Notes under the pieces: generated by a model | Seen by the model: only the letters and a program-made list of their open reading frames with translations | Database searches by the model: none | What the model was told of the DNA's origin: nothing | Part shown: positions 16,217 to 56,746 of the stretch, piece after piece | How the letters are laid out: each line of letters begins with the position of its first letter | Numbering within the stretch: the first letter of the stretch is position 1 | DNA from: Bacteroidia bacterium | GTDB lineage: Bacteria > Bacteroidota > Bacteroidia > Cytophagales > Cyclobacteriaceae | DNA length: 64,000 nt | Direction of reading: 5' to 3' | NCBI GenBank assembly: GCA_030432655.1 | Contig: JAUILA010000021.1 | Location: forward strand, 1-64,000 | Program-made: the position numbers and the translations under genes

Positions 16217-16217
16217 T

Positions 16218-20019: not shown

Positions 20020-20032
20020 CAGGAGGGGATGT

Positions 20033-20156
20033 ATGTACAGTTGGAGAATTGAGCATACAGCGTGCGTGGGTCAAAAAGTCTGTCATCCCCGTCTATGTAC
20101 AGTGGGAGAATTGAGCATACAGTGTGCGTGGGTCAAAAAGTCTGTCACCCCCGTCC
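20033..20156 (+). repeat. 62-bp tandem repeat, 2 copies (same family as 30367..30800)
   Basis: Unit atgtacagttggagaattgagcatacagtgtgcgtgggtcaaaaagtctgtcacccccgtct repeated at 20033 and 20095. Confidence 0.9.
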
Positions 20157-20354
20157 GGTAACCTGAACGAGTGATTGTCCCTCCAGACGGGGGTCTGGGA
20201 TCGGAGATCCCCGGTAAGCTGGAAGAGTACGATAGGAGGGGCGTAGCGTGGACGCTACGACCATCATTGGATTAAAGAGTAAGTCTCCGTAGCTGCTGGA
20301 TCTCGGGTTACACGACCTTCGGCCGTGTCCCCGAGATGACAGCGCATGAGTCCA
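20143..20354 (+). repeat. ~210-nt structured repeat element, copy A (putative structured RNA / MITE-like)
   Basis: About 93-95% identical to copies at 30786..30998 and 30999..31208. Contains nested perfect stems (cccccgtc...gacggggg, cgtagcg-tgga-cgctacg, ctcggg...cccgag). Confidence 0.7.
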
Positions 20355-20422: not shown

Positions 20423-21211
20423 TTACTCCTTCTCCCCCTTCCGATCCATGGTTTTCATCAATAAGTCAAGTTTTTCTTCCAGGGCAATAATGCGTTCCTC
20501 GGTCCGTGATGGTGCCTTCATGTGTTCGCTGTAATAGGCCCGGACTTTCCAGATTTCCAGCAGGGCATTCCTGGAGTAATGCAGGATGTCAAAAGCCGGG
20601 TCGTCCGTTTTGAAGGTCAGGTTTTTGTTAATATCGCTCAACCGGCGTACGCGGATTGCATCATCTGTAATCAGCACATACAAGGTTCCCACTTCGAGCA
20701 TATCTTCCTTTCTAACCCGGTCACATAAAAGAATATCCTGATGGTGAATCCCGCAGTTTTCATATTCCATCTCCTTCCCGTCTACCTGGAAGGCCCGTGT
20801 TTTTTCAAACTGTGTGAATGGAAACTGGAAGGAAGGGAGGGAGTTGATAAAGTCTTTGTTCTTATGGCTTACAATATATTCGGTCATCTTATCGATCAGG
20901 ACCAGCGGGGTTTGTTCTTTGAGAAGATCCTTGTCAAGGATGACTTCACTTTCCGTCTTCGCCTTTCCACCTGCAGAGAATAGGTCAAACTTATATAATT
21001 CATTGATTGTGAGTTCTTTGGTGAGAAGGGCGTCAGTACTGATTTTAAAATGCTTCGCTATTTCTATGAGCGTATCTATTTTTGGTTCGGACCGGCCTTC
21101 TTCATAGGCTCCCACACTTGGTCGGGCTAAATTGAACAGCTGAGCAAAATCTGCCTGACTCATTTTCTTCACTGAACGTATTTTTTTGATGTTTTTCCCA
21201 ATTTTTGACAT
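20423..21211 (-). CDS. XRE-family HTH transcriptional regulator with LexA/cI-like S24 domain carrying substituted catalytic residues (Ser to Glu, Lys to Arg)
   Basis: N-terminal HTH_XRE (KKMSQADFAQLFNLARPSVGAYEEG). C-terminal region aligns to LexA VSGMSM...VKRL as VDGKEM...VRRL. Confidence 0.7.
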   Translation of the reverse strand: MSKIGKNIKKIRSVKKMSQADFAQLFNLARPSVGAYEEGRSEPKIDTLIEIAKHFKISTDALLTKELTINELYKFDLFSAGGKAKTESEVILDKDLLKEQTPLVLIDKMTEYIVSHKNKDFINSLPSFQFPFTQFEKTRAFQVDGKEMEYENCGIHHQDILLCDRVRKEDMLEVGTLYVLITDDAIRVRRLSDINKNLTFKTDDPAFDILHYSRNALLEIWKVRAYYSEHMKAPSRTEERIIALEEKLDLLMKTMDRKGEKE

Positions 21212-21450
21212 GTGAATATTTTTTTTCTTTTGTGTAACCTCTTAAGAACTAGTACGTAAATATAAGTAATTAGTTGCTCAAAAAAATAGCAATGACAAAA
21301 AAAGTAGCATTATTTAATTTTATTTATTACTTTTAGAATTAGATGCGAGGCTACATTCAGTATTAGTATACTTTTTATGATTTCCCTCGGGAGTCAAAAA
21401 TATAATTAATACTTTCAATCGATTTATTCACCTCTAACTCAAATCAACCT

Positions 21451-21852
21451 ATGAACGAATACTTCAAAAAAGTACGGGATTACCTGCTGGACCTAAACTA
21501 CAACATCAGCTATGAAGCTGAAACAGACGGTGTCATCGTCGTGGATGAACAAAGTGCAGGAGTGCAAAATCTGGTACTTGGGGTAGCAGACCCGATCCTG
21601 ATCATCGAACAGTTCATTCTGGAGATCAATGGCAACAGTGCAGAAATCTATCGCAGCCTTCTTCAGAAAAACCGCGACATCATCCATGGAGCCTTCGTGC
21701 TTGATGAAAGCGGCACCAAAGTGATTTTCCGGAATACCCTGGAACTTGAAAATCTTGACCTGAACGAACTGGAGGCGTCCTTTAATTCGCTCAGTCTGCT
21801 CCTAAGTGAGTACTCAAACGAACTAATCCAATTTTCTAAGAAAAAACAATAA
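21451..21852 (+). CDS. YbjN/YjfI-like small cytoplasmic protein (putative sensory-transduction regulator fold)
   Basis: 133 aa, acidic. Pattern resembles YbjN-like domain proteins. First gene of the pspA operon, 11 bp upstream of pspA. Confidence 0.4.
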   Translation: MNEYFKKVRDYLLDLNYNISYEAETDGVIVVDEQSAGVQNLVLGVADPILIIEQFILEINGNSAEIYRSLLQKNRDIIHGAFVLDESGTKVIFRNTLELENLDLNELEASFNSLSLLLSEYSNELIQFSKKKQ

Positions 21853-21862
21853 ACATACGATC

Positions 21863-22591
21863 ATGAAAATCTTTAAACGACTATTCAAAATCGGCCAGTC
21901 CGAGGCCCATGCAGCTATAAACAATCTTGAAGATCCCATTAAGCTGACCGAACAGGGTATCCGCGATATGAAGGAAGACCTTGATAAGGCGCTTAATTCA
22001 CTGGCCCAGGTGAAAGCCATGGCCATCCGTGCCCGAAAGGATGCGACCACCTACTCGGAAAAAGCGGAAGAGTATGAGGGAAAAGCGGTGACTTTGTTAA
22101 AGCGTGCTCAAAGTGGTGACATTGATTCATCCGAGGCAGACAGGCTGGCCACCGAAGCCCTTGCACAGAAAGATAATAATCTTCAGCACGCTTCCCGCGC
22201 ATTGGGAGAGCAGACGAAATACGAAGAATCAGTTGAAAAGCTTGAAAGCAATGTCAACCGGCTCAAGTCAACCATTAATCAGTGGGAGAATGAGTTGAAA
22301 ACACTCAAGGCACGCGTCAAAGTGAGTAACGCAACCAAGAATATCAACAAGCAAATGGCGCAGATCGATTCCACGGATACGATCTCCATGCTGGAACGAA
22401 TGAAGGATAAAGTTGCTCAGGAAGAAGCACTGGCCGAATCCTACGAAGAGATGGCCAACGAATCCAGAAGTATCGATGAGGAAATCGATCGTACCCTGGA
22501 GGAGTCCGGTAAATCCGACAAAGCCCGTGAACTGGAAGCTTTGAAGGAGAAACTTGGAATAAAAAAAGAGGACAGTTCTGACAAAGAATAA
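21863..22591 (+). CDS. pspA: PspA/IM30 (ESCRT-III-like) family protein
   Basis: 242 aa all-helical. Alignable with E. coli PspA over the full length (N-terminal amphipathic helix, coiled-coil hairpin). Confidence 0.85.
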   Translation: MKIFKRLFKIGQSEAHAAINNLEDPIKLTEQGIRDMKEDLDKALNSLAQVKAMAIRARKDATTYSEKAEEYEGKAVTLLKRAQSGDIDSSEADRLATEALAQKDNNLQHASRALGEQTKYEESVEKLESNVNRLKSTINQWENELKTLKARVKVSNATKNINKQMAQIDSTDTISMLERMKDKVAQEEALAESYEEMANESRSIDEEIDRTLEESGKSDKARELEALKEKLGIKKEDSSDKE

Positions 22592-22597
22592 TTAATC

Positions 22598-23221
22598 ATG
22601 GGCGAATTACTTGAGGCGGCACTTTCACCAGCAAACCTGGTGATTACAATCCTGGCGGTTTTTGTAGTGATCTACTGGATCACCGTGATCATCGGCCTGG
22701 TGGATGTCGACCTGTTTGATCTCGACTTAGATCTTGACATGGACGTCGATGCCGACGGAATTTCGGTCGGCTGGCTCAACTCGGCCCTTGCCTTTTTCAA
22801 CCTGGCACAGGTGCCCATCATGATCTTCCTGAGTTTCCTTATCATTCCGGCCTGGGGCCTGATACTAATCGTTAACAATGCATTAGGGATTGAATCCTTC
22901 CTGCCCGGATTGCTGGTACTTATTCCTGTATTCATCATCAGTTTGTTCATTGCCAAATTCATGACAATTCCCTTTGTGAAAATTTTTGGGAAAATGTCAG
23001 AGGAGAAGGAGAATGAAGTGGTCATTGGCAAAGTCTGCGAAGTTATTGTTCCCACGAGGGGCAGTAAAGTCGGACAGGCGCTTGTAACAACAAACGGGGC
23101 ACCCCTGCGACTGAATGTCTTTACAACAAAAGGCATCGAGTTGATCAAAGGGGATAAAGGCCTGGTCATTGAATACCAGAAAGAACGAAATATTTATTTA
23201 ATCGAACCTTATAACAATTAG
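22598..23221 (+). CDS. YqiJ/NfeD-like inner-membrane protein (TM N-terminus, acidic DLDLD stretch, C-terminal OB-fold)
   Basis: Multi-TM N-terminal half. C-terminal VIGKVCEVIVP...GQALVTTNGAPLRLNVFT...GDKGLVIEY resembles the NfeD OB-fold. Sits immediately upstream of a flotillin gene as in yqiJK. Confidence 0.6.
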   Translation: MGELLEAALSPANLVITILAVFVVIYWITVIIGLVDVDLFDLDLDLDMDVDADGISVGWLNSALAFFNLAQVPIMIFLSFLIIPAWGLILIVNNALGIESFLPGLLVLIPVFIISLFIAKFMTIPFVKIFGKMSEEKENEVVIGKVCEVIVPTRGSKVGQALVTTNGAPLRLNVFTTKGIELIKGDKGLVIEYQKERNIYLIEPYNN

Positions 23222-23223
23222 AA

Positions 23224-25395
23224 ATGGCAACAAATGTAACGATCGTTTTAATTCTGGTCGGCGTTATCCTCGTAATCGGGATATTGTCGCTCTTTATTAA
23301 AATGTATAGAAAAGCTGTCCAGGGCGAAGCACTCATCAGGACTGGTGTTGGCGATGCAAAAGTTTCATTCTCCGGAATATTTGTCATCCCGGTAATGCAC
23401 AAACTGGAGGTTATGGACATCACCCTCAAAACGGTCAATATATCGAGAATGGGGAAAGATGGTCTCATATGTAAAGACAATATGCGAGCCGATATCAAGG
23501 TGAGTTTCTTTATCCGTGTAAACAAAACCACGGAAGATGTAATTCATGTAGCACAGTCAATCGGATGTCAGCGCGCTTCGGATATTCAGCAACTTGAAAT
23601 GCTGTTTGACGCAAAATTCTCCGAGGCCTTAAAAACCGTAGGTAAGCACTTTGACTTTGTGGAACTCTATAATTCACGAAGCAAATTCAAGGAAAAGATC
23701 CTGGAAGAGATCGGTACGGACCTCAATGGCTATGTGCTGGATGATTGCGCCATAGATTATGTGGAGCAGACATCGATCCTTGATCTTAATGAACAAAATA
23801 TCCTTGACGCACAGGGTATCAAGAAGATCATTGACCTGACGGCCGCAGAAAAGGTGAAGTCCAACCTGATCGAGCGGGAAAAGGAAAAGACCATTAAGAA
23901 GCAGGACGTGGAGGCGCGCGAAACCATTCTCCAGCTGGAAAGGCAGCTTGCGGAGAAGGAAGAGCAGCAGAAACGTGAAATTGATAACATCAAGGCCCGT
24001 GAAGAAGCGGCGATTGCCAAGGTGCGTGAGGAGGAACGTCTCAAGTCCGAAAAAGCACGAATTACCACCGAGGAAGAACTTGGGGTAGCCGAGGAGAACA
24101 AACTCCGTCAGATCGTAGTGGCGCAGAAGAGTAAGGACAAAACGGAAGCGGTTGAAATGGAGCGTGTGGAACTTGCCCGTGCCCTGGAGGCAACCGAACG
24201 CGAGCGGGTGGTTGAGCTGGCGCAGATTGATAAGGAGAAGTCCCTCGAAGTGGAGCGCAGAAATATCCAGGAGGTTATCCGTGAGCGCGTGACCGTGGAG
24301 AAGGCAACAGTGGAAGAAGAGGAAAAGATCAAGGATACACGCGCGAAGGCTGAGGCTGATCGTAATAAGATGGTGGCGATTACGCTGGCCGAACAGAATG
24401 CCCAGGAGGCGCTTGTTAAAGAGATCAAATCGGCCGAAGCTGCCAAACAGTCGGCAGAACATCTTGCTGAAAAAGCGCTGGTGGATGCACAAGCGGAGAA
24501 ATCAGCGGCCGAACACCGCGCAGAAGCCATGAAGACCATGGCCGAAGCAGAAGCCGCTCAGAAAGCAGCTTTAGGTATGTCCGAGGCACAAGTCATGAAA
24601 GCCAAGGCAGAAGCACTCGAAGAGCAGGGTGAGTCGGAAGCCTCCGTGATCGAAATGAAAGCAGAAGCCGAAGCCAAAGGAATCCGGGCCAAGTCCAACG
24701 CGCAGGCGGAAGCCGAAGAGCGCCTCGGATTTACCGCAGCCAAGGTAAACCGGGAGAAAGGGCTTGCCAATGCCGAGGTGACGGAAGTTCAGGCAGCTGC
24801 CGACGAGAAGAAAGGCCTTGCCGACGCCAGGATCATGAAGGAGAAGTTCGCCGCGGATGCAGAAGGCATAAAAGCCAAAGCGGAAGCTATGAAACTCTTC
24901 GACGACCAGGGTATCCTTCACGAAGAGTTTAAGTTACAGCTTGAAAAAGACAGGACGATCGAACTTGCTCATTTCGACATTCAGAAGTATGTGGCAGAAG
25001 CACAGGCGAAAGTACTGGGAGAAGCATTCAAGGAAGCCAACATCGATATCATTGGTGGGGAGTCCATGTTCTTCAACCAGATCGCGGGCGCCATTGCCAA
25101 TGGTAAGTCGATCGACGGACTCGTCAATAACAGCAAAGTGCTGAGCGATATCCGCCATACCTTTTTAGGAAGTGAAGGCGGATCTGACTTCAAGCACAAG
25201 ATCGGTGAATTGCTTAAAAGCTTTAATGTGACCAGTGATGATGTGAAGAATCTCACCATTTCTGCGATCCTCTTTAAGCTCATGGGCAAAGCCGATAATG
25301 CCGACCTGAAGTCAAACCTTCAGCAAATGATGAGCATAGCCAAGTCTGCGGGACTCGATAAGGAGACCCCGAGATCATTGGGACTGGCCGTTTAA
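23224..25395 (+). CDS. flotillin-like SPFH/band-7 protein (YqiK/FloT-type) with long Ala/Glu/Lys-rich coiled coil
   Basis: N-terminal TM anchor, SPFH domain, about 350 aa of EA-rich heptads. Start is 3 nt after the upstream stop. Confidence 0.8.
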   Translation: MATNVTIVLILVGVILVIGILSLFIKMYRKAVQGEALIRTGVGDAKVSFSGIFVIPVMHKLEVMDITLKTVNISRMGKDGLICKDNMRADIKVSFFIRVNKTTEDVIHVAQSIGCQRASDIQQLEMLFDAKFSEALKTVGKHFDFVELYNSRSKFKEKILEEIGTDLNGYVLDDCAIDYVEQTSILDLNEQNILDAQGIKKIIDLTAAEKVKSNLIEREKEKTIKKQDVEARETILQLERQLAEKEEQQKREIDNIKAREEAAIAKVREEERLKSEKARITTEEELGVAEENKLRQIVVAQKSKDKTEAVEMERVELARALEATERERVVELAQIDKEKSLEVERRNIQEVIRERVTVEKATVEEEEKIKDTRAKAEADRNKMVAITLAEQNAQEALVKEIKSAEAAKQSAEHLAEKALVDAQAEKSAAEHRAEAMKTMAEAEAAQKAALGMSEAQVMKAKAEALEEQGESEASVIEMKAEAEAKGIRAKSNAQAEAEERLGFTAAKVNREKGLANAEVTEVQAAADEKKGLADARIMKEKFAADAEGIKAKAEAMKLFDDQGILHEEFKLQLEKDRTIELAHFDIQKYVAEAQAKVLGEAFKEANIDIIGGESMFFNQIAGAIANGKSIDGLVNNSKVLSDIRHTFLGSEGGSDFKHKIGELLKSFNVTSDDVKNLTISAILFKLMGKADNADLKSNLQQMMSIAKSAGLDKETPRSLGLAV

Positions 25396-25465
25396 CGGGC
25401 CAGCTGTATTAATCAAAACGCCCGGGAAGTTGGTCCCGGGCACTTAAACCCTACACCAGTAAAAT

Positions 25466-28400
25466 ATGAGCGATAAGGAAACTTTGTCGACGGGTGGAAA
25501 CTACGAGGTTCTGAAGTCACGCCTGAATGCAGCAGTTGAAGATTTGAAGTCTTCCCTCGCCGGCCTGAATGAGGCTAGGAAAGATACATTCGGCAATATA
25601 GAACAGAAGCTGGTTGCTACCGAACGGATCAGTACGCAGAATAATTGTGTTCCGAGGGATATGATAGCACTGGGCGATAAGCTCCTGTTTGGCTTTAATG
25701 TGCACATCGGGCTAAAAGCCCAGGTCAGTGTGTCCGATGTATTCTCCATCCACAAATATGAAGATCATGCTTTTCATGAACTGGATAATGCGCTTATCAG
25801 CGACGATCAGTTTGAAGATGATTTTCATAAGCTATATAAATACTACAAGGAAACCACCTTCGTGAAATTCGCGGTCCGCGGTCCTTACCTGTATATGATA
25901 TTCCGTATCGGCAAGGACGAAGAGGATATTAAGGCGTTCAAATGGCAGATCAATGCGGAAGGACTCACCTATATCGATAATCGCAGCGAGTACGAATTTT
26001 CCTATCCCGATCAGCATGAATTCTCCTGGAAAAAGACCACGCGTGACAATCAGCGTCAGGGTAAATTTCCCCATGTTTCCATTGAGGATAAGTTGTTCGT
26101 GGAAACAATAGGAGGTGACCTGACCATAAAGATAGAGGACAATACCGATAACGGTCATGGCATTTACAAGGAGGAAGTGGAGGATGCCGACCAGACCCTG
26201 GATGACAGTGAGATCTATTATGCAATTTACGGCAGCCTGATCCTGTTGAAAATCCGCCCCTACCGCGAAGAGGCATACCGTTACCTCGTGTATAACAGTA
26301 AGCTTCAGCAGGTGCGAAATATACCGTCAATCCGGGAAGCATGTATCTTTCTTCCGGACGACCAGGGTATTCTGTTCACAAATGGATATTACCTGCAATC
26401 CGGTGACTTCAAGGCGTTTGAACGCGACGAAGCCAATCTTAAGTACGAACTGACTATTGCCTCTCCCAATGGGGAGGATTATATGTATGTTTTCTACCAG
26501 CCCGGAATCGGTAATTACCTGTTGCTTCCATATAATATAATTCTCCGTCAGATCGGCACCCCGATATGGTGCCATGGATACGCGCTGTACCAGAACGGCG
26601 AATTGGCTTATTTCACGGCAGATGAGCAGCCAAAGAAGCATCATGTAGTGCGGATCTGGCAAACTTCATATACCGCTCCTGATTTTGAACTGACCCACAC
26701 CAACAATTCTTACCTGTCAAAAGTCGGTAACAAAGATATCGTACGAGCGATGGCGGAATGTCAGGAGATCATTACACTTACGGAGAAAGGAGAGGATTAT
26801 GATGGTTTGTATATTGATCTGTCAAGACAGGCGACAGATGTTATCGACTCCTATTACTGGCTGGATCATGACGAGGCGTTTAATGTAAAAAGTCCGCTGG
26901 AAAATATCCGGCAGTCAGCGAATGCCGCCATTGATGAATTTGACAAAGTAGTCAGGATCCGGAAGGAAACCGGCCAGCGTACGAAAGCTGTTTTTGACGA
27001 GGGGTCCTCACATATTAAGAAAACATCCCGCGAAAGCGGACAATCCCTTGATACGTATGTGGCTCACCTGACTACGTTCAGAAAACTGATGGGGGAAACG
27101 GAAGGCTTGCGTCAGTTGCGGTTTGCAGATGAGGAAGCGGTGGATAAACAGCTTGCGGAATTGAAACAGGCCAGTGAGAGTTACGCGGCATCCTGCGTAC
27201 GGTATCTTCTTCGCCCTGAATCGCTCGAGCCTTACGAAAAACGTATTGACGAATTAGCGGCTCGGATTGATGAGGTGAAAAAGGTGACCGAGGCCAAGGA
27301 ATTGCAGGAGAATATTAATCAGACAGGTAAGGATCTGGAGATGCTGATCGACGTGGTGAGTAATCTTAAAATTGAAGATGCCACACAAACGACAGAGATC
27401 ATTGAAAATATTTCAGCACTTTTCGCGAGGGTTAACCAGCAAAGGGCCCGGCTGAAAAAGCACAGGCAGAATCTGTCGCGGGAGGAATCCAAGGCAGAGT
27501 TTGTGGTCCAGATGAAACTGGTTGATCAAAGCCTCACCAATTACCTGGATCTGTGCGATACACCGGCCCGTTGCGAGGAATACCTTTCAAAGCTGTTAAT
27601 CCAGATTGAGGAGATGGAGAGCCGTTTCGGAGATTTTGAGGACTTCTTTTCTGATATTGCCGATAAACGGGAGATGGTGGTCGATGCCTTTGAATCCCGC
27701 AAGAATGTGATTAATGAAGAGCTCGGTAGAAAGCGTCAGAGCCTTTTTCAGTCCGGTAAGCGAATACTTCAAAGTATAGAAAACCGCGTCTTGAAAATGA
27801 ATGACGCCGCCGAAATTCAGGCCTATTTCACTGCGGATTTAATGATTGAGAAAGTTCGGTCCACCATTGAAAAATTGCGTGAAATTGATGATCCGGTTAA
27901 AGCGGATGATCTGGCTGGACAGCTTAAATCATTACGGGAAGACGCTTACAGGCAATTGTCGGACAGGCAGGATCTGTATGCCGGAGATGATGATATAATT
28001 AAATTCGGCAATTTCCAGTTTTCCATTAATTCGCAGCAACTTGAATTGTCCATTATTCCACGGAATGAATCACTCTATTTCTACCTGGGCGGCACAAATT
28101 TTTACGAAAAAGTCAATGACGAATTTCTGGAGAATAACAAGGAAATATGGGACCAGGTCTATCAGTCCGAATCGCCGGATGTATACCGGGCGGAGTTTCT
28201 TGCCTATTCACTTTTCCAGCAATGGCGGATCCAGGGCAATGAAGTATTAAGTGACATTGAAGCGATGGAGGATCAGGATCTGCTGGAACGGATCCGGAAG
28301 GAAATGTCCACCCGGTTCAACGAAGGATACGCGAAAGGCATTCATGATGAAGATACCCTGAAGATCCTGAAGGCAATTTTCTCATTTTACTCAGCAGGGG

Positions 28401-30310
28401 GGACGCTGATCTACCCGGCGGATATCCGTGCGGAAGCAATGAAATTCTGGTTTTTCACCCTCGATGAGGGTTCCAGGAAAAAATGGAACGACAGGATCAA
28501 GGGTCTTGGATTAATTTATTCCGTTTTTAATAATCCTGCGATTTATGCGGAAACCTGCGCGCTCCTTTTACCACTGATTACAGAATCGTCGCGTGATTCC
28601 TTAACCCGCAGTCAGTATGAAGAGGTGACCCGTTACCTTGTGGAAGAAATGGCGGTGGAAACCACCTTCATCTTGTCTGCAGAAGCAGCGGCAACCGGCG
28701 TTAATTTCAAGGCAGCCCTGAAGAAAAGAAAGGCAGTAAAGACCTTTGAAGAATCGCTCAGGAAAGCGGGTGAAACACCTGCAGAACAATTTGCCATGGT
28801 GTGCGAATGGTTAAGGGTTTTTAGTAATCCGGAAGAACGTGAGTTTATGCAGGAAGCCGCTTTGTACATATTAATGGAAGATGTTTTCAGGGTGTCTGAT
28901 ACCGTTATGAAACACCAGATTGGCGGAATGAAGGGAACACATCCGAAGATCAGTGACCAGAATGAATTGGCGTTGAACTTTAATAATTATTTCAAGCGCC
29001 TTTTAGACTATACAACAGGTACTTTACCGGCGTTCCGTGAATTTCAGCACCGGAAGCAGGAAAAGGTAAAAACGTTTTCCGACGAACTTCGGCTGGATTC
29101 CTTTAAGCCAAAAGTCATGAGCAGTTTTGTGCGAAACAAACTGATTAATGATGTCTATCTTCCCCTCATAGGTGCCAACCTGGCCAAGCAAATTGGGGAG
29201 GCCGGAGCCAATCAGCGAACAGATCTGATGGGACTATTGCTGTTGATCTCTCCGCCCGGCTATGGCAAGACTACGCTTATGGAATATATTGCCAACCGCC
29301 TGGGGCTTATATTTATGAAAATTAACGGTCCGGCCATTGGTCACGATGTTACTTCCGTTGATCCGGGAGAAGCGTCAAGTGCCACTGCCCGCCAGGAGCT
29401 GGAAAAGCTGAACCTGGCTTTTGAAATGGGCGATAATATTATGATATACCTGGATGACATCCAGCACGTGAGCCCCGAATTTTTGCAGAAGTTCATTTCG
29501 CTTTGTGATGCCCAGCGGAAAATTGAAGGTGTTTATAAAGGTAAAACCCGCACCTATGATTTTCGCGGTAAGAAGGTTTGTGTGGTAATGGCAGGCAACC
29601 CCTACACCGAGAGCGGTGAGAAGTTTGCTATACCTGATATGCTGGCTAACCGGGCCGACATCTATAATCTTGGCGACATCATTGGTGATTCCTCCCATGC
29701 TTTCAAATTGAGTTACATCGAGAACTGTATCACGAGTAACCAGACCCTTAATAGCCTGGCCGGTAAAAGCCGCGAGGATATCTATGCACTGATCAAGTCT
29801 GCAGAAGACGGAACGGCAGCCGACACCCTCACCGGCAACTATTCTCCAGATGAAATTTCAGATTACCTCAAAGTATTTAAAATGCTTCTGAAGGTCCGGG
29901 ATGTCATCATGACCGTCAATAACGAATACGTTCGCTCAGCAGCACAAGCAGATGAATTCCGGACTGAACCTCCGTTTAAACTGCAAGGTTCTTATCGCGA
30001 CATGAATAAGATCGCGGAAAAAGTATTTCCGGTCATGAATGAAGACGAGTTGAATATTATCCTGTCGGATCATTATGAGAATGAAGCGCAGTCACTCACC
30101 CGCGGGGCTGAATTTAACCTGCTTAAATACAACCAGCTGACTGATCAGCTGACCGACGAAAACCGGAAACGATGGGATTATATAACCAGTGTCTTTATGA
30201 AACAGCAAAAGCAGAAAGGATACGGGGATAATTCAACGGCGATGCTCGTGGAGAATATGGAAGAAATCAGTGACGGGATTCGTGAGATTGGAAAGGCATT
30301 GAAGAAATGA
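25466..30310 (+). CDS. giant (1614 aa) protein with C-terminal MoxR-like AAA+ ATPase module; N-terminal ~1200 aa of unknown function (beta-rich region + long coiled coil)
   Basis: Walker A LISPPGYGKTT (about 29245), Walker B IMIYLDDIQH, sensor block VVMAGNPYTESGEKFAIPDMLANRAD (compare MoxR ATQNP...LDRF). No recognisable N-terminal domain. Confidence 0.75.
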   Translation: MSDKETLSTGGNYEVLKSRLNAAVEDLKSSLAGLNEARKDTFGNIEQKLVATERISTQNNCVPRDMIALGDKLLFGFNVHIGLKAQVSVSDVFSIHKYEDHAFHELDNALISDDQFEDDFHKLYKYYKETTFVKFAVRGPYLYMIFRIGKDEEDIKAFKWQINAEGLTYIDNRSEYEFSYPDQHEFSWKKTTRDNQRQGKFPHVSIEDKLFVETIGGDLTIKIEDNTDNGHGIYKEEVEDADQTLDDSEIYYAIYGSLILLKIRPYREEAYRYLVYNSKLQQVRNIPSIREACIFLPDDQGILFTNGYYLQSGDFKAFERDEANLKYELTIASPNGEDYMYVFYQPGIGNYLLLPYNIILRQIGTPIWCHGYALYQNGELAYFTADEQPKKHHVVRIWQTSYTAPDFELTHTNNSYLSKVGNKDIVRAMAECQEIITLTEKGEDYDGLYIDLSRQATDVIDSYYWLDHDEAFNVKSPLENIRQSANAAIDEFDKVVRIRKETGQRTKAVFDEGSSHIKKTSRESGQSLDTYVAHLTTFRKLMGETEGLRQLRFADEEAVDKQLAELKQASESYAASCVRYLLRPESLEPYEKRIDELAARIDEVKKVTEAKELQENINQTGKDLEMLIDVVSNLKIEDATQTTEIIENISALFARVNQQRARLKKHRQNLSREESKAEFVVQMKLVDQSLTNYLDLCDTPARCEEYLSKLLIQIEEMESRFGDFEDFFSDIADKREMVVDAFESRKNVINEELGRKRQSLFQSGKRILQSIENRVLKMNDAAEIQAYFTADLMIEKVRSTIEKLREIDDPVKADDLAGQLKSLREDAYRQLSDRQDLYAGDDDIIKFGNFQFSINSQQLELSIIPRNESLYFYLGGTNFYEKVNDEFLENNKEIWDQVYQSESPDVYRAEFLAYSLFQQWRIQGNEVLSDIEAMEDQDLLERIRKEMSTRFNEGYAKGIHDEDTLKILKAIFSFYSAGGTLIYPADIRAEAMKFWFFTLDEGSRKKWNDRIKGLGLIYSVFNNPAIYAETCALLLPLITESSRDSLTRSQYEEVTRYLVEEMAVETTFILSAEAAATGVNFKAALKKRKAVKTFEESLRKAGETPAEQFAMVCEWLRVFSNPEEREFMQEAALYILMEDVFRVSDTVMKHQIGGMKGTHPKISDQNELALNFNNYFKRLLDYTTGTLPAFREFQHRKQEKVKTFSDELRLDSFKPKVMSSFVRNKLINDVYLPLIGANLAKQIGEAGANQRTDLMGLLLLISPPGYGKTTLMEYIANRLGLIFMKINGPAIGHDVTSVDPGEASSATARQELEKLNLAFEMGDNIMIYLDDIQHVSPEFLQKFISLCDAQRKIEGVYKGKTRTYDFRGKKVCVVMAGNPYTESGEKFAIPDMLANRADIYNLGDIIGDSSHAFKLSYIENCITSNQTLNSLAGKSREDIYALIKSAEDGTAADTLTGNYSPDEISDYLKVFKMLLKVRDVIMTVNNEYVRSAAQADEFRTEPPFKLQGSYRDMNKIAEKVFPVMNEDELNIILSDHYENEAQSLTRGAEFNLLKYNQLTDQLTDENRKRWDYITSVFMKQQKQKGYGDNSTAMLVENMEEISDGIREIGKALKK

Positions 30311-30323
30311 CAGCATGGCGGAT

Positions 30324-30347
30324 GGTCGGAGCGTCCACGCTCCGACC
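30324..30347 (+). terminator. perfect 10-bp stem-loop immediately after the giant gene stop (no U-tract)
   Basis: ggtcggagcg-tcca-cgctccgacc, 14 nt downstream of the TGA. Confidence 0.4.
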
Positions 30348-30366
30348 AACAGTCCCTGTCACCCCT

Positions 30367-30800
30367 ATGTACAGTTGGAGAATTGAGCATACAGTGGGCG
30401 TGAGTAAAAAAGTCTGTCACCCCCGTCTATGGACAGTTGGAGAATTGAGCATACAGTGTGCGTGGGTTAAAAAGTCTGTCACCCCCGCCTATGGACAGTT
30501 GGAGAATTGAGCATACAGTGCGTGTGAGTAAAAAAGTCTGTCACCCCCGTCTATGTACAGTTGGAGAATTGAGCATACAGTGTGCGTGGGTTAAAAAGTC
30601 TGTCACCCCCGTCTATGTACAGTTGGAGAATTGAGCAAACAGTGGGCGTGAGTAAAAAAGTCTGTCACCCCCGTCTATGTACAGTTGGAGAATTGAGCAT
30701 ACAGTGTGCGTGAGTAAAAAAGTCTGTCACCCCCGTCTATGTACAGTTTGAGAATTGAGCATACTGTGTGCGTGGGTCAAAAAGTCTGTCACCCCCGTCC
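30367..30800 (+). repeat. 62-bp tandem repeat array, 7 copies, two alternating unit variants
   Basis: Copies start at 30367, 30429, 30491, 30553, 30615, 30677 and 30739. Variants differ at gtgggcgtgagtaaaaaa versus gtgtgcgtgggttaaaaa. No unique spacers. Confidence 0.9.
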
Positions 30801-30998
30801 GGTAACCTGAACGAGTGATTGTCCCTCCAGACGGGGGTCTGGGATCGGCAGATCGCCGGTAAGCTGGAAGAGTACGATAGGAGGGGCGTAGCGTGGACGC
30901 TACCACCATCATTGGATTAAAGAATACGTCTCCGTAGCTGCTGGATCTCGGGTTACACGACCTTCGGTCGCATCCCCGAGATGACAGCACGTGAGTAC
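30786..30998 (+). repeat. ~210-nt structured repeat element, copy B
   Basis: See copy A. Has a register-shifted hairpin, cggc-agatc-gccg, where the other copies have gggatc...gatccc. Confidence 0.7.
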
Positions 30999-31208
30999 CT
31001 GTCACCCCCGTCCGAAAATCTGAGCGAGTGCTTGTCTCTCCAGACGGGGGTCTGGGATCGGTAGATCCCCGGTAAGCTGGAAGAGTACGATAGGAGGGGC
31101 GTAGCGTGGACGCTACGACCATCATTGGATTAAAGAATACGTCTCCGTAGCTGCTGGATCGCGGGTTACTCGACCTTCGGTCGCATCCCCGAGATGGCAG
31201 AGAATGAG
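30999..31208 (+). repeat. ~210-nt structured repeat element, copy C (overlaps the annotated ltaE ATG)
   Basis: Tandem to copy B. The element's terminal ccccgagatgRcag supplies the ATG at 31194. Confidence 0.7.
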
Positions 31209-31238
31209 AAATACCGTGATTTTTCCTATTTTTCACCT

Positions 31239-32261
31239 ATGATCATCGATTTGCGCAGTGATACTGTAACCAAACCCACTCCGGGAATGCTGGATGCCAT
31301 GATGTCGGCTGAGGTTGGCGACGATGTATTCGGCGAAGACCCCACCGTCAATGCCCTGGAAGAAAAATGCGCTTCGCTTTTTGGCAAGGAGGCCGCCCTG
31401 TTTTGTCCGTCCGGTACCATGACCAACCAGATCGGGATCAATATCCTGACCAGTCCTTACGAGGAAGTCATCTGTTACAGGAACAGTCACATTTACCTTT
31501 ATGAAGGTGGCGGAATTGCCGGCAACAGTGGATTATCATTCCGTTTACTGGATGCCGATAACGGCCGGCTCACCCGTGACCAGGTGGAAGCGGCCATAAA
31601 TCCGGATGACGTTCACTTTCCCCGCACTTCAGTGGTTTCACTGGAGAATACGGTTAATAAAGGCGGAGGCTCGTGTTACGACCTCAATGAAATCCGCAAG
31701 ATCAGCCGTCTTTGTCGTGACAGAGGCCTGGGACTGCACCTGGATGGCGCCCGCTTGTTTAACGCACTGGTGGCCAGGCATGAATCGCCCAGTGATTACG
31801 GCCGGCTCTTTAATACGATCTCTCTCTGCCTGTCGAAAGGACTGGGCGCCCCGGTCGGATCGGTTCTGATTGCCGACAAATCCCTGATCGCCAAGGCGCG
31901 CAGAATGCGAAAAGTATTCGGCGGAGGAATGCGCCAGGCAGGATTCCTGGCGGCCGCAGGGATCTATGCACTGGATAATCACGTTAACCGGCTTGAGGAT
32001 GATCACCGGAGGGCGACCACCCTGGCGGCGGTGCTTTCCGCCTGTTCCTGGGTAACCGAAGTGTTCCCGGTGGAGACAAATATCGTCATTGTGAAGTTGA
32101 AAGAAGGCCTGACCAATGAACAGGTTTTAGGAGAATTCAGCGAAAAAAATGTACTGGCAACGGGCTTTGGACCTGGGTTGATCCGCTTCACAACCCACCT
32201 GGATTTTACTGATTCACATCTTGAGGAGGCCGTTAAAAAGCTTCGCCCGATATCCTTTTAA
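31239..32261 (+). CDS. ltaE: low-specificity L-threonine aldolase
   Basis: [14 protein letters not shown] start is typical of LtaE. Class-I/II PLP aldolase sequence. The longer ORF from 31194 starts inside the repeat element. Confidence 0.8.
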
Positions 32262-34881: not shown

Positions 34882-37197
34882 ATGAGGAAAGTTCTATTGA
34901 CCACCTTGTTGGCTGTGATCTCTTTTGCAATGAACGCGCAATTTTCGAGTAATGCTGACATTGATGATCATAATCGAGTGACGATTAATAAGTATCCTGT
35001 CAACGGATACCTTGAGCATCTTCCCGCAGACTACTATTCAAATCCTACTAAAAAATATCCGATGATCGTGATGCTTCACGGACAGTCGGAACGCGGAAAT
35101 GGTACTACTCAACTCTGGATGGCTGCCAAGGCAGGACCATCTTATGAGGCTGAATATAACGGGAAGTTTTGTATAGATGGAGAATGTTTTATAGTGATAT
35201 CACCGCAGCTTGCAGCGGGCAGCTGGACTGCCAGCGCACAGGCTGGTTTCTGGGATTATATCCTGAATCAGCGCGGACTGCGGTACGATCCGGACCGGAT
35301 CTACCTTACAGGGCTTTCCCTGGGTGGTAACGGGGTCTGGAACTGGATAACTTCGGATTATCCCGGAGCTGATAAAATTGCCGCGGCAACGATCAATGCC
35401 GGTTGGGGAAATACCGGACTTGCTTATAAGGTCAATCAGCGTGGAACTTCGACCTGGGGTTTCCATGGAACAGCTGACCCGGTTATTGCTTATAACAACG
35501 GGAAAGGAATGAGCGACGCGGTAAAAAATTCAAGTAACCCGCATGGAGCTGAACACAGGTGGACGGGCTTTGCCAATCAGGGTCATAACATCTGGTGGAT
35601 GACTTATCGCATGGATGATTACTACGTAAGCCCGAATCCTTATCGTTGGATGGCCGGAAAACGTCGTCAGAATCAGTCCGGTGGCGGAGGTTCAGAGCCT
35701 AACCAGGGACCAAGTGTTAATGCCGGTGCGGACGTAACAGTCAATGCGAATACCGGCTCGGGCAGTGTTACTGCTTCGGCAAGTGATCCGGATGGATCTG
35801 TGGTAAGTTACCGATGGACTAAGATCTCAGGTCCGGCAGTATCCATGTGGAGCACCAATACCGCAACACTTGGACTATCAAACTTTGCTGCCACCGGTGG
35901 AACATATGAATTCCAGATCACGGTAACGGATAATGACGGAGCTACAGCTTCTGACCGGGTACGGGTGATCAAGGAAACTGCTCCTACTGGCGGAGGTGGA
36001 ACCGGCGGTGGCTCTAACAGCGCGCCTACTGTTTCAGCGGGACCTGACGTTACAATCCCTGCTTCTTCAGGTTCAGGGAGTATTCAGGCTTCAGCAAGTG
36101 ACAGCGATGGGTCCATCGCCAGCTACAAGTGGACTAAAATTTCCGGTCCTTCTGTTTCCATGTGGAGCACTAACTCATCGAAATTGTTGCTTTCTAACTT
36201 CTCAGCTAACGGCGGTACGTATGTCTTCCGGGTAACGGTAACCGATAATGATGGTGCCCAGGCTTCGGATGATGTCACCCTTGTGAAACAAGTTGCCGGA
36301 GGCGGCACTTCGTCTTCCGGAAATAATGCGCCAACTGTTTCGGCTGGCTCTGACTTTACAGTACCTGCCAGCTCCGGATCGGCAAGTATCCAGTCTTCAG
36401 CCAGTGACAGCGACGGAAACATCGCCAGCTATAAGTGGACTAAAATTTCAGGTCCGTCCGTATCCATGTGGAGTACCAACTCATCAAAACTGTTGCTTTC
36501 TAATTTTGCGGCTTCCGGCGGTAACTACGTGTTCCGTATAACGGTAACCGATAACGGAGGGGCAACCGCTTATGATGATGTTGTGGTTACGAAGCAGGTT
36601 ACAGGTGGTTCAGGTTCAGGCACAGGCATTACTGTCTCTGCAGGAGCCGACATGACAATCGATATGTATACCGGTTCTGCACTTGTGCAGGGAGCAGCGG
36701 TAGACCAGGGCGGCCATATTGTAAAATACCAGTGGACGAAAGTAAGCGGACCCAGCGTATCGATGTGGAGTACCAACTCTCCAAATCTGGGTCTTTCGAA
36801 CTTTGCTGCATCAGGTGGAATTTATGAGTTCAGGCTTACTGTGACGGACGATTCCGGAAACCAGGCGTCTGATGTGATGAGGCTGACCAAGCTGACTACG
36901 CTTTCAGCTTTGAATAATAATAACTTTAACTACACTATCAATAAGGAATCAGGTGAATTCAGCCGCGTTGAGCAGGAAGTTGAAGTGAAGAACTATCGTA
37001 CTGATGGTAATCCCGTAGAATTCAGCAGCACCCAGCCAATGAGAGTGATTATCATGGGCATCAACGGTGTAATGGTGACGGATGAGAAGGTGAACGGAAG
37101 TGTAAATGCCAACATGCTTTCTAACGGTATGTACATTTATCGTCTCGTGACCGAGGAAGGAGTCCTTGTTCAGAAAGGACGAATTATCCGCTACTAG
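34882..37197 (+). CDS. secreted esterase (alpha/beta-hydrolase, GLSLGG) with 5 PKD-like repeats and T9SS C-terminal sorting domain
   Basis: Signal peptide. GLSLGGNG nucleophile elbow. Five repeats of about 95 aa, each with SDPDGS..SY.WTKISGP.VSMWSTN. C-terminal ...NGMYIYRLVTEEGVLVQKGRIIRY T9SS CTD. Confidence 0.75.
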   Translation: MRKVLLTTLLAVISFAMNAQFSSNADIDDHNRVTINKYPVNGYLEHLPADYYSNPTKKYPMIVMLHGQSERGNGTTQLWMAAKAGPSYEAEYNGKFCIDGECFIVISPQLAAGSWTASAQAGFWDYILNQRGLRYDPDRIYLTGLSLGGNGVWNWITSDYPGADKIAAATINAGWGNTGLAYKVNQRGTSTWGFHGTADPVIAYNNGKGMSDAVKNSSNPHGAEHRWTGFANQGHNIWWMTYRMDDYYVSPNPYRWMAGKRRQNQSGGGGSEPNQGPSVNAGADVTVNANTGSGSVTASASDPDGSVVSYRWTKISGPAVSMWSTNTATLGLSNFAATGGTYEFQITVTDNDGATASDRVRVIKETAPTGGGGTGGGSNSAPTVSAGPDVTIPASSGSGSIQASASDSDGSIASYKWTKISGPSVSMWSTNSSKLLLSNFSANGGTYVFRVTVTDNDGAQASDDVTLVKQVAGGGTSSSGNNAPTVSAGSDFTVPASSGSASIQSSASDSDGNIASYKWTKISGPSVSMWSTNSSKLLLSNFAASGGNYVFRITVTDNGGATAYDDVVVTKQVTGGSGSGTGITVSAGADMTIDMYTGSALVQGAAVDQGGHIVKYQWTKVSGPSVSMWSTNSPNLGLSNFAASGGIYEFRLTVTDDSGNQASDVMRLTKLTTLSALNNNNFNYTINKESGEFSRVEQEVEVKNYRTDGNPVEFSSTQPMRVIIMGINGVMVTDEKVNGSVNANMLSNGMYIYRLVTEEGVLVQKGRIIRY

Positions 37198-51654: not shown

Positions 51655-51694
51655 TTTCCTTAACTGTGAACGAAGTGAACAGTCCTTCCGTAGG

Positions 51695-53913: not shown

Positions 53914-53921
53914 GGTTCCGA

Positions 53922-56710: not shown

Positions 56711-56746
56711 GGGGCCACTTCTTATTGATGGGTTATTTCACTTCAC

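What the first reader, a model, noticed from the sequence alone, without database searches (positions are those of the whole stretch)
30786..31208. Three copies of a ~210-nt highly structured element (two in tandem here, one at 20143-20354): candidate ncRNA or MITE
The copies are about 93-95% identical. They contain a nested 8-bp stem cccccgtc...gacggggg, a 7-bp hairpin cgtagcg-tgga-cgctacg, a ctcggg...cccgag stem enclosing a cgacc-ttc-ggtcg hairpin, and a GATC-centred hairpin. In copies A and C the GATC-centred hairpin is gggatc-gga/ggta-gatccc. In copy B it is re-registered to cggc-agatc-gccg. That is a structure-preserving difference, which hints at selection on RNA or DNA secondary structure. 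No reverse transcriptase or transposase is nearby. A short SD-like AGGAGG-GTG 14-codon ORF inside is probably incidental.
Basis: seen in the sequence. Interest (0 to 1): 0.7.

Follow-up and report, generated by a model that had tools for sequence, protein, structure and literature searches.

The report
Hairpin-tagged DNA repeat arrays flanking island
The three ~210-base copies are real, but they are best read as DNA repeats: two inverted "TGTC-tagged" hairpins of the REP/NTS kind, sitting in larger mosaic repeat arrays on both sides of an accessory gene island in a Cytophagales bacterium, and not as a new RNA gene.

Summary
There are three copies, 93-96% identical: A at 20142-20354, B at 30786-30998, C at 30999-31211. 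Each copy sits in a same-strand array of 62-nt units (2 and 7 copies) and 28-nt units, and every unit begins with CTGTCACCCC (11 hits, 0.14 expected). The two arrays sit at the two junctions of a 10-kb island (HTH-S24, CesT, PspA, DUF3686-AAA). Four related genomes have the same junctions without any repeat.

Each element ends in a tagged hairpin, tags outward:
- + strand: TGTC-ACCCCCGTC...GACGGGGGT-CTGG
- - strand: TGTC-ATCTCGGG...CCCGAGAT-CCAG

This is the signature of CGTC/TGTC-tagged REPs (Neisseria dRS3/NTS, "SRM"), which are targets of the small GIY-YIG single-strand DNA nuclease Ssn. The difference is loop size: 27 and 23 nt here instead of 4-5. Metagenome contigs show canonical versions with the same tag, tandem half-site repeats, and in one case a flanked GIY-YIG gene.

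Nothing supports an RNA gene. There is no Rfam hit and no compensatory change, and the "re-registered" hairpin is a single disruptive substitution. No ssn gene lies in the window, so the enzyme link is inferred. Verdict: a new variant of a known kind, of moderate interest.

The parts
20032..20141 (+). Locus 1: two 62-nt S units. Each is a ~48-nt AT-richer body followed by the GC-rich head CTGTCA(C/T)CCCCGTC. They start 12 nt after the stop codon of the OMP beta-barrel gene (19342-20019).
   Evidence: TRF period 62 x 2.0; alignment; sequence
20142..20342 (+). L copy A, 201 nt from terminal repeat to terminal repeat (CTGTCACC...GATGACAG)
   Evidence: right end confirmed in independent contig L132
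20343..20416 (+). 11-nt tail of copy A plus about 2.5 T units of 28 nt (CCTGTCACCCCACGCCCTGTTCTTCTTC). These are head-only half-sites and abut the stop codon of the HTH-S24 gene.
   Evidence: TRF period 28 x 2.1
30311..30355 (+). Leader of locus 2. It has ATGACAG overlapping the stop codon of the DUF3686 gene, then a perfect 12-bp hairpin at 30323-30348 that resembles the central hairpin of L.
   Evidence: DNA fold z -5.29
30356..30785 (+). Locus 2: seven S units of 62 nt. The heads start at 30356, 30414, 30476, 30538, 30600, 30662 and 30724.
   Evidence: TRF period 62 x 7.0; (head 71-79% GC, body 38-42% GC)
30786..30998 (+). L copy B (core 30786-30987 plus the 11-nt tail CACGTGAGTAC)
30999..31211 (+). 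L copy C (core 30999-31200 plus tail). Native ltaE upstream sequence resumes at about 31212.
   Evidence: boundary from comparison with L133; last 81 nt identical in L002/L003
30788..30842 (+). Left tagged hairpin, read on the + strand: TGTC-ACCCCCGTC-[27 nt]-GACGGGGGT-CTGG. The same hairpin lies at 20144-20198 and 31001-31055.
   Evidence: structural scan, 0.045 expected per shuffled window; fold
30941..30985 (-). Right tagged hairpin, read on the - strand: TGTC-ATCTCGGG-[23 nt holding a nested 8-bp hairpin]-CCCGAGAT-CCAG. The same hairpin lies at 20296-20340. A degenerate copy lies at 31154-31198.
   Evidence: DNA fold z -5.85 (B), -6.47 (A), -1.17 (C)
30843..30940 (+). Conserved 98-nt spacer between the two tagged hairpins. 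It holds the GATC hairpin (30841-30856) and the CGTAGCG-TGGA-CGCTAC(C) hairpin (30887-30904).
20423..30310 (.). Accessory island bracketed by the two arrays. Genes: HTH-S24 regulator (-), CesT/YbjN, PspA, a 207-aa protein, a 723-aa protein, and a DUF3686+AAA protein of 1614 aa.
   Evidence: Pfam; absent in L010/L011/L133, present in L009/L134

Best explanation
The ~210-nt element is a DNA-level repeat. It is a dimer of two inverted hairpins of the CGTC/TGTC-tagged REP class (Neisseria dRS3/NTS, 'Ssn-related motifs'), with the tags facing outward, around a conserved 98-nt structured spacer. It belongs to larger head-to-tail mosaic arrays, in which the 62-nt and 28-nt units carry only the tag and the 5' arm.

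By analogy with NTS/SsnA, I propose the following. The hairpins extrude in single-stranded DNA. A small GIY-YIG Ssn-type nuclease, encoded elsewhere in the genome, recognises them through the GTC just 5' of the stem, the stem base, and the C just 3' of it. It nicks a few nt 5' of the tag, on the + strand at the left end and on the - strand at the right end. Those positions are at or next to the unit junctions.

Repeated nicking and repair or re-insertion, together with unequal recombination, would then build the arrays. Sitting at both junctions of an accessory island, the arrays would act as recombination or ssDNA-cleavage landmarks, as proposed for the NTS-gene-NTS arrangement in Neisseria.

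What is shown: the anatomy, the tags, the lineage-specific insertion, and the family resemblance. What is inferred: the nuclease, the nick sites, the way the arrays grow, and any effect on the island.
For: 1. Both termini fit the class, on opposite strands. Each has a TGTC tag, then an 8-9-bp stem whose first pair is A-T, then C and a YRG tail (TCTGG and TCCAG, fitting the TCYRG of NTS). The structural pattern hits 5 of the 6 L ends, against 0.045 expected per shuffled window.

2. The published definitions match. CGTC may be TGTC, stems are 8-9 bp beginning with A-T, the tail is CCA, and dimers have 20-100-bp conserved, structured spacers (Di Nocera 2013). NTS is CGTCATTCCCGCGMAVGCGGGAATCYRG and NTSvar is CGTCATACTCGGGNNNNNCCCGAGTATC. 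The window's right end reads GTCATCTCGGG...CCCGAGATC.

3. In SsnA assays the C right after the palindrome matters most for binding, and the three nt before the palindrome matter most for cleavage. Both features are kept in both hairpins.

4. In a scan that selected only for two CTGTCACCCCC heads, 23 metagenome contigs carry canonical tagged hairpins: stems of at least 7 bp (8 bp in every example listed), loops of 3-8 nt (4-6 in the examples), and a TCCA tail. Many of them also show the mirrored right end GGATxCCCG...CGGGxATGACAG. Eleven have tandem 18-22-nt half-site repeats directly upstream, the analogue of the S and T units. Thirty loci match the published SRM expression.

5. One such contig, L117, encodes a 95-aa single-domain GIY-YIG protein flanked by these hairpins.

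6. The repeats are absent from the orthologous junctions in four relatives.

7. All heads are on one strand (11 of 11). The arrays show a GC wave, 71-79% in the heads and 38-42% in the bodies, as described for NIME arrays.

8. In the nested stem of the right hairpin, copies A and B differ by three transitions. All three are G.T wobbles on the - strand, which is the strand that carries the tag.
Against: - The loops are 27 and 23 nt instead of 4-5 (0-5 in the SRM expression). The published SRM expression finds nothing in the window.
- With such a loop, the left hairpin is no more stable than shuffled sequence (z -0.18).
- No GIY-YIG gene, or any other candidate nuclease or transposase gene, lies in the 64 kb. 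The rest of the genome could not be read.
- Only three L copies are available, so genome-wide abundance is unknown.
- Head-to-tail arrays are said to be negligible for CGTC REPs.
- The CTGTCACCCCC head of the metagenome relatives was my search key, so identity of the head itself is not independent evidence.
- Copy C has a degraded right end.
Confidence: 0.55

Rival explanations
1. The element is a structured non-coding RNA. It would be either an sRNA on the - strand or a cis-acting 3'-UTR element on the + strand, and its hairpins would be selected at the RNA level.
For: The - strand fold is better than shuffles (z -3.60, 0 of 200 shuffles). On the - strand the element ends with a long GC hairpin followed 8 nt later by a T run, which the terminator scan flagged. 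Both loci lie downstream of + strand genes. REPs in general can act in mRNA (Di Nocera 2013 abstract). Three wobble-compatible transitions occur on the - strand.
Against: No Rfam match appears even at E<=10. No promoter-like site is associated with the element. No compensatory double changes occur among the copies, while at least four substitutions break stems. The + strand fold is unremarkable (z -1.57). The two terminal hairpins carry their tag on opposite strands. The element is absent in all four relatives. No homologue turned up in any collection searched.
Confidence: 0.1
2. The element is a classical MITE. It would be a deletion derivative of a DDE-transposase insertion sequence, moved by cut-and-paste through its 8-nt terminal inverted repeats CTGTCAYC/GATGACAG.
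For: Terminal inverted repeats are present. The size of about 200 nt fits. The copies are multiple and near-identical, and the element is present or absent between relatives.
Against: No target-site duplication flanks any copy. No transposase lies in the window. The copies sit head-to-tail in same-strand arrays with 62-nt and 28-nt units that share only the left head. The S-L junction is identical at both loci, so S and L moved or duplicated together. The termini are themselves tagged hairpins of the REP type.
Confidence: 0.1
3. The element is a REPIN mobilised by a RAYT (an IS200/IS605-type Y1 transposase). Such enzymes also recognise hairpins in single-stranded DNA.
For: The architecture is the same: two inverted REP hairpins around a spacer, forming a non-autonomous unit. 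Such elements are expected to be intergenic, lineage-specific and vertically inherited.
Against: RAYT-associated REPs carry a GTAG tag, whereas these carry TGTC. CGTC/TGTC REPs were found not to flank RAYT genes and were later tied to Ssn. No Y1 transposase was found among the window's ORFs.
Confidence: 0.1
4. The two arrays are mainly a by-product of island integration. In this view they are duplicated attachment or recombination sequence left on both sides of the 10-kb island, not an independently spreading repeat.
For: The arrays are direct repeats at the two island junctions. Copy A (left) is closer to copy B (right), at 96%, than B is to its tandem neighbour C, at 94%. The S-L junction sequence is identical at both sides. 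The island is present or absent among relatives.
Against: Relatives L009 and L134 carry the island next to ltaE with no repeat at that junction. No recombinase lies in the island. This view does not explain the tagged hairpins or the internal tandem structure. It is compatible with the main explanation, through recombination between pre-existing repeats.
Confidence: 0.05

Closest known systems
CGTC/TGTC-tagged REPs (Di Nocera, De Gregorio & Rocco 2013, PMC3733652), which include Neisseria dRS3 and Rickettsia RPE-4/6
   Same: Both have an unpaired (C/T)GTC tag, an 8-9-bp stem beginning with A-T, and a short C-starting tail. Both are organised as inverted dimers with conserved, structured spacers. 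Both lie in intergenic positions downstream of genes. The class has been reported in Bacteroidetes, among five phyla.
   Different: The loops are 27 and 23 nt rather than 4-5. The left tail is CTG rather than CCA. The elements are embedded in head-to-tail arrays with half-site units, which that survey called negligible. The spacer, at 98 nt, is at the top of the reported range.
NTS / Ssn-related motifs and the Ssn GIY-YIG ssDNA nuclease family (Chenal et al. 2025, PMC11893778)
   Same: The flanking determinants are the same: GTC before the palindrome and C after it, with a TCYRG tail. The right-end stem CTCGGG/CCCGAG is nearly that of NTSvar. The repeats cluster around particular genes. A metagenome relative of the head motif flanks a 95-aa GIY-YIG gene (L117).
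   Different: The window's hairpins fail the published SRM expression because of loop size and one stem position. No ssn gene was seen in the window. Cleavage has not been tested.
Neisserial intergenic mosaic elements, NIMEs (Bentley et al. 2007, PMC1797815)
   Same: Both are arrays of different repeat units (19-214 bp in NIMEs; 28, 62 and 213 nt here) separated by a short conserved GC-rich motif. Both give a GC wave. Both flank variable genes or islands, and array length varies.
   Different: In NIMEs the separators are complete dRS3 palindromes. Here most separators are only the tag plus the 5' arm. Here the units are tandem copies of the same sequence rather than a mosaic of many RS families. 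The organism belongs to Bacteroidota.
REPIN/RAYT systems (Bertels & Rainey 2011, PMC3116915)
   Same: Two inverted REP hairpins form a ~100-200-nt non-autonomous unit that is recognised as ssDNA and is lineage-specific.
   Different: The tag is TGTC, not GTAG. No RAYT is present. The elements are arranged in arrays.
Modular repeats such as pneumococcal BOX elements (boxA-boxB(n)-boxC); this comparison is from memory and was not checked here
   Same: Both have a composite structure with a variable number of tandem internal modules.
   Different: There is no sequence or terminal-hairpin similarity. BOX elements have complementary A and C ends rather than tagged REP hairpins.

Membership tests
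CGTC/TGTC-tagged REP (SRM/NTS class) | Unpaired (C/T)GTC tag immediately 5' of the palindrome | tested here: met
   TGTC lies directly before the stem at the left end (+ strand, 3 of 3 copies) and at the right end (- strand, 2 of 3 copies; copy C reads TGCC).
CGTC/TGTC-tagged REP (SRM/NTS class) | Stem of 8-9 bp whose first positions are A-T | tested here: met
   Left stem ACCCCCGTC/GACGGGGGT, 9 bp, first pair A-T. Right stem ATCTCGGG/CCCGAGAT, 8 bp, first two pairs A-T and T-A.
CGTC/TGTC-tagged REP (SRM/NTS class) | Loop of 4-5 nt (0-5 in the SRM search expression) | tested here: not met
   The loops are 27 nt (left) and 23 nt with a nested hairpin (right). The published SRM expression gives 0 hits in the window and hits 30 metagenome loci.
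CGTC/TGTC-tagged REP (SRM/NTS class) | C directly after the palindrome, with a CCA / TCYRG tail | tested here: met
   The left end reads ...GGGGGT-CTGG, so TCTGG fits TCYRG. The right end reads ...CGAGAT-CCAG, so TCCAG fits TCYRG and carries the CCA tail (definitions).
CGTC/TGTC-tagged REP (SRM/NTS class) | Inverted dimers with a 20-100-bp conserved, often structured spacer | tested here: met
   The tags face outward. The 98-nt spacer is conserved in the three copies and holds two small hairpins (definition).
CGTC/TGTC-tagged REP (SRM/NTS class) | Many copies per genome | not testable with these tools
   Only 64 kb of the genome is available. It holds 3 L copies and 14 heads in total, all within the two loci: 11 exact CTGTCACCCC matches plus 3 variant heads (20080, about 20353 and 20408). 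The genome is not in the species-representative collection. The one scan of that collection gave only a chance hit.
NTS/SRM-Ssn system | A cd10448-type single-domain GIY-YIG gene in the genome, often flanked by the motif | tested here: inconclusive
   None is in the window: tblastn with the L117 protein, a motif scan, and Pfam on the large ORFs. The rest of the genome is unavailable. A metagenome contig with the same head motif does carry one.
NTS/SRM-Ssn system | Strand-specific binding and nicking of ssDNA a few nt 5' of the motif | not testable with these tools
   This needs purified protein and oligonucleotides.
NIME-type mosaic array | Units of about 20-200 bp, each flanked by complete dRS3-type palindromes | tested here: not met
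   The S and T units are separated by the tag plus the 5' arm only. S keeps at most a degenerate 3' arm, CGTGGGT. Only L has complete palindromes.
NIME-type mosaic array | GC wave along the array, and association with variable flanking genes | tested here: met
   Heads are 71-79% GC and bodies 38-42%. The arrays bracket an island that is present or absent among relatives.
Classical MITE | Terminal inverted repeats plus a target-site duplication | tested here: not met
   An 8-nt TIR is present, but no duplication flanks any of the three copies.
REPIN/RAYT | GTAG-tagged REPs and an associated Y1 transposase | tested here: not met
   The tag is TGTC. No Y1_Tnp domain was found among the window's ORFs.
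Structured ncRNA family | Match to a curated RNA family, or covariation that supports a conserved fold | tested here: not met
   Rfam gave nothing at gathering thresholds or at E<=10. Three copies show no compensatory pairs and several stem-breaking changes. Three sequences are too few for a formal test.

The most novel reading that the evidence does not exclude
The arrays may be a fossil record of how Ssn-associated (CGTC/TGTC-tagged) repeats spread, which is still an open question. In this reading, units are added head-to-tail at the nuclease's nick site just 5' of the tag. That leaves tandem half-sites, as seen here and in at least 11 unrelated metagenome contigs. It would mean the small GIY-YIG enzyme acts as, or cooperates with, a single-strand copy-and-insert machine. 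The large-loop L element would show that such hairpins can carry cargo in their loops and spacer. The paired arrays could mark the 10-kb PspA/DUF3686 island as a unit for exchange or for protection.
Probability: 0.15. Interest if true: 0.7.

Novelty: new variant of a known kind. Interest (0 to 1): 0.35.

Why it matters
CGTC-tagged REPs were an orphan repeat class until 2025, when the Neisseria version (NTS) was shown to be the target of a site-specific single-strand DNA nuclease. How these repeats multiply, and what they do outside Neisseria, is unknown.

This locus adds three things. First, it is a Bacteroidota example whose hairpins keep the flanking recognition features but carry 23-27-nt loops. 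If the cognate nuclease cuts them, the usable substrate range of Ssn enzymes is wider than the published motif, which matters for their proposed use as ssDNA tools. Second, it shows NIME-like arrays outside Neisseria, bracketing a variable island. Third, the tandem half-site arrays, also seen in many metagenome contigs, are a concrete footprint that any model of repeat propagation must explain.

It also removes a false lead: there is no evidence for a new RNA gene here.

Tried and rejected
- **Known RNA family.** Rfam at gathering thresholds on the whole window, and at E<=10 on 30200-31300, returned only a tRNA and noise.
- **Protein-coding.** A - strand frame stays open through B and C (169 aa; 213 = 3 x 71) and through A. 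A 1-nt indel shifts the frame in A, and a search of 5.8 billion proteins found nothing. Rejected.
- **Remnant of an ssn gene.** tblastn of a GIY-YIG protein against L and S alone found nothing meaningful.
- **CRISPR.** The 'spacers' are themselves repeated, so the window arrays are not CRISPR. Some metagenome hits to the head motif were true CRISPR repeats (ending ...GGATTGAAAC) and were set aside.
- **Finding more copies.** The exact 21-mer of the L core in 185,579 species genomes gave one chance hit. Scans of viral contigs gave none or only chance hits. The S/head 20-mer in JGI metagenomes gave none. BLAST against E. coli genomes, plasmids and phages gave none. The L core and the S body have no relative among 120 metagenome loci. 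A covariance model was therefore not built, because three near-identical copies carry no information.
- **S as a deletion derivative of L.** The best local alignment joins the S 3' part to the L 3' terminus and tail, but its score equals the shuffle mean. This stays a suggestion only.
- **Island as a known defence system.** PADLOC gave only generic HTH and AAA hits.
- **Integrase link.** The window's only tyrosine integrase belongs to a separate tRNA-Ser element 16 kb away.
Full report
**1. Observation**

The three copies are real.
- The repeat finder reports a 202-nt family at 20141-20342, 30786-30987 and 30999-31200.
- Tandem Repeats Finder reports period 213 x 1.9 at 30786-31200.
- Gapped identities over the core are 96.0% (A/B), 94.1% (B/C) and 92.6% (A/C).

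Independent short-read assemblies from two other samples confirm parts of the copies. Logan contigs L002 and L003 reproduce the last 81 nt of the 213-nt unit of copy C exactly. L132 reproduces the 28-nt units and the right end of copy A exactly. Each contig stops inside the repeat, as expected for short reads.

**2.

The element is not free-standing.
- At locus 1 it is preceded by two 62-nt units and followed by about 2.5 units of 28 nt.
- At locus 2 it is preceded by seven 62-nt units and is itself duplicated in tandem.
- Every unit of every kind begins with CTGTCACCCC. There are 11 exact matches, all on the + strand and all in these two loci, against 0.14 expected. With up to three mismatches to the 14-mer, 12 of 16 matches are in the two loci.
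- L has 8-nt terminal inverted repeats, CTGTCAYC...GATGACAG, and an 11-nt tail. No target-site duplication is present.
- The GC content alternates between 71-79% in the heads and 38-42% in the 62-nt bodies. L is 58% GC in a 46% GC window.

**3. Genomic context**

- The organism is a Cytophagales bacterium. The nearest named ltaE homologues are Fulvivirga at 64-67% identity. Unnamed relatives reach 74-81%.
- Locus 1 lies between an OMP beta-barrel gene and an HTH-S24 regulator gene. Locus 2 lies between a 1614-aa DUF3686/AAA gene and ltaE.
- Between the two loci is a block of six genes: HTH-S24, CesT/YbjN, PspA, 207 aa, 723 aa and DUF3686-AAA.
- In relatives L010 and L011 the OMP gene is directly next to ltaE. 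In L133 the SSF gene is next to ltaE. In L009 and L134 the block is present and abuts ltaE, with 55 nt between DUF3686 and ltaE in L134.
- None of these junctions holds any repeat.
- Comparison with L133 places the right edge of array 2 at about 31211 and the true ltaE start at 31239.

So the arrays are lineage-specific additions, and they sit exactly at the two junctions of an accessory island.

**4. Not RNA, not protein**

- Rfam gives nothing.
- The + strand RNA fold is ordinary (z -1.57). The - strand fold is better (z -3.60).
- Among the three copies there is no compensatory pair. At least four substitutions break stems: the central hairpin in B, the right stem in C, and the inner stem in A and in C.
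- The 're-registered' GATC hairpin of B is one substitution that removes a pair.
- An open - strand frame is broken by a 1-nt indel in A and has no homologue.

**5. Identification**

A metagenome scan for two CTGTCACCCCC heads 30-60 nt apart returned more than 120 contigs. Some were CRISPR arrays or low-complexity coding repeats. A coherent group showed one architecture:
- (C/T)CTGTCA-CCCCCGxx-loop-xxCGGGGG-TCCA, then 10-60 nt, then GGATxCCCGxx-loop-xxCGGGxA-TGACAG.
- Tandem 18-22-nt repeats of the tag plus the 5' arm lie on the left. Mirrored repeats lie on the right (L089, L109).
- 23 loci have canonical tagged hairpins, and 11 of them have at least two half-sites directly upstream.

This matches two descriptions in the literature.
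- Di Nocera et al. (2013) defined CGTC-tagged REPs. The tag is often TGTC. Stems are 8-9 bp and start with A-T. Loops are 4-5 nt and the tail is CCA. They occur mostly as inverted dimers with 20-100-bp conserved, sometimes structured spacers. They were found in five phyla including Bacteroidetes and have no associated transposase. The Neisseria members are dRS3.
- Chenal et al. (2025) showed that the Neisseria version, NTS (CGTCATTCCCGCGMAVGCGGGAATCYRG), and its variant NTSvar (CGTCATACTCGGGNNNNNCCCGAGTATC) are bound as single-stranded DNA by SsnA, a 94-aa GIY-YIG nuclease, which nicks them just upstream. Thousands of homologues are flanked by such 'Ssn-related motifs'.

**6. Fit of the window element**

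- Left end, + strand: TGTC-ACCCCCGTC-[27 nt]-GACGGGGGT-CTGG.
- Right end, - strand: TGTC-ATCTCGGG-[23 nt with a nested 8-bp hairpin]-CCCGAGAT-CCAG.
- Both ends have the tag, a stem that starts with A-T, the C after the palindrome, and a TCYRG tail. In SsnA assays that C was the most important base for binding, and the three bases before the palindrome were the most important for cleavage.
- The right stem is almost that of NTSvar.
- A structural pattern (GTCAY, a stem of at least 6 bp, a loop of at most 45 nt, then TCYRG) finds 5 of the 6 L ends plus one stray hit, against 0.045 expected per shuffle.
- The right hairpin is very stable as DNA on the - strand (z about -6 in A and B). There, A and B differ by three transitions that are all G.T wobbles on that strand.

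What does not fit is the loop size. The published SRM expression finds nothing in the window, and the left hairpin, with its 27-nt loop, is not more stable than shuffles.

The 62-nt unit keeps the tag, the 5' arm and, about 33 nt later, a degenerate 3' arm (CGTGGGT-C). The 28-nt unit keeps only the tag and the 5' arm. Both correspond to the half-site repeats seen in the metagenome contigs.

**7. The enzyme**

One metagenome contig, L117, carries a 95-aa single-domain GIY-YIG gene flanked by these hairpins. The window holds no GIY-YIG, Y1 or DDE gene. The rest of the genome could not be reached:
- The species-representative collection does not contain it.
- Only short Logan contigs carry its proteins.

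The link to an Ssn-type nuclease is therefore an inference from the motif class, not a result.

**8. Mechanism proposed**

The steps marked as inferred are stated in the best explanation. In outline:
- The tagged hairpins extrude in single-stranded DNA.
- An Ssn-type nuclease nicks a few nt 5' of each tag, on opposite strands at the two ends of L. Those positions are at the unit junctions.
- Nick-associated copying or re-insertion, plus unequal recombination, builds the same-strand arrays. Two details fit this growth. The 62-nt units alternate between two subtypes. The S-L junction is identical at both loci.
- The two arrays, as direct repeats around the island, can serve as substrates for recombination or as cleavage landmarks for incoming single strands. 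This has been argued for NIME arrays and for the NTS-gene-NTS arrangement in Neisseria.

**9. Novelty and score**

The class (CGTC/TGTC REPs, NTS/SRM, NIME-like arrays) is known. This is a new variant, with long loops, a 98-nt structured spacer, tandem half-site arrays, a Bacteroidota host, and a position bracketing an island.

NIME arrays were stated in 2007 not to occur outside Neisseria. Head-to-tail CGTC arrangements were called negligible. The half-site arrays are not mentioned in the two papers read. These points give some specialist interest. With three copies and no enzyme in hand, the finding rates moderate (0.35), not the 0.7 first assigned.

Noticed in passing
window 47611-58526: An integrative mobilisable element sits next to tRNA-Ser(TGA) (47611-47696). 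It is bounded by 25-nt direct repeats, TTGTGGGGCGAWTTGTGGGGCGAAA, at 47750-47774 and 58502-58526. It carries a PstI/BsuBI-type restriction enzyme, a C5 methylase, a MobA/VirD2 relaxase, a Toprim protein, VapE and a tyrosine integrase. It is unrelated to the repeat arrays.
   Followed up: partly
window 20423-30310: The block of six genes (HTH-S24, CesT/YbjN, PspA, 207 aa, 723 aa, DUF3686+AAA of 1614 aa) behaves as an accessory island. It is absent in L010, L011 and L133 and present in L009 and L134. It matches no PADLOC defence system, and two of its proteins have no Pfam domain.
   Followed up: partly
L045, L047, L078, L089, L097, L102, L109, L123 and others (metagenome contigs): Canonical (C/T)GTCA-tagged hairpins are preceded by tandem 18-22-nt repeats made of the tag, the 5' arm and part of the loop. 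This holds for 11 of 23 loci. Mirrored repeats of the 3' arm plus the tag follow the right-hand hairpin in L089 and L109. The two papers read do not describe this. My sample was selected for paired heads, so the frequency is unknown.
   Followed up: partly
L117 1435-1719 (-): A 95-aa single-domain GIY-YIG protein (Pfam PF01541, E 5e-19) is encoded between clusters of TGTCA(C/T)-tagged hairpins. This is the NTS-ssn-NTS arrangement described for Ssn nucleases.
   Followed up: partly
window 30321-30348: A perfect 12-bp hairpin (TGGTCGGAGCGT/ACGCTCCGACCA) lies just after the DUF3686 stop codon. It resembles the central hairpin of L (CGTAGCG-TGGA-CGCTACG), with a G-C versus T-A double difference and a reversed loop. 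ATGACAG, the right-terminus motif of L, overlaps the stop codon.
   Followed up: partly
window 31194-31239: The longest ltaE ORF starts at an ATG inside the right terminus of copy C. Homologues are 337-340 aa and the upstream sequence aligns with L133, so the true start is the ATG at 31239.
   Followed up: yes
window 14840-17252: Cytochrome bd oxidase subunits I and II lie between the P-type ATPase and SSF transporter genes. In L010 and L011 those two genes are adjacent, so this is a second indel in the region.
   Followed up: no
window 35707-36608 and 35056/37656: Diverged 281-nt direct repeats (62-76% identity) lie inside the 771-aa PKD/K319L-domain protein gene; they are protein-domain repeats. 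A 47-nt repeat is shared with the next gene.
   Followed up: no
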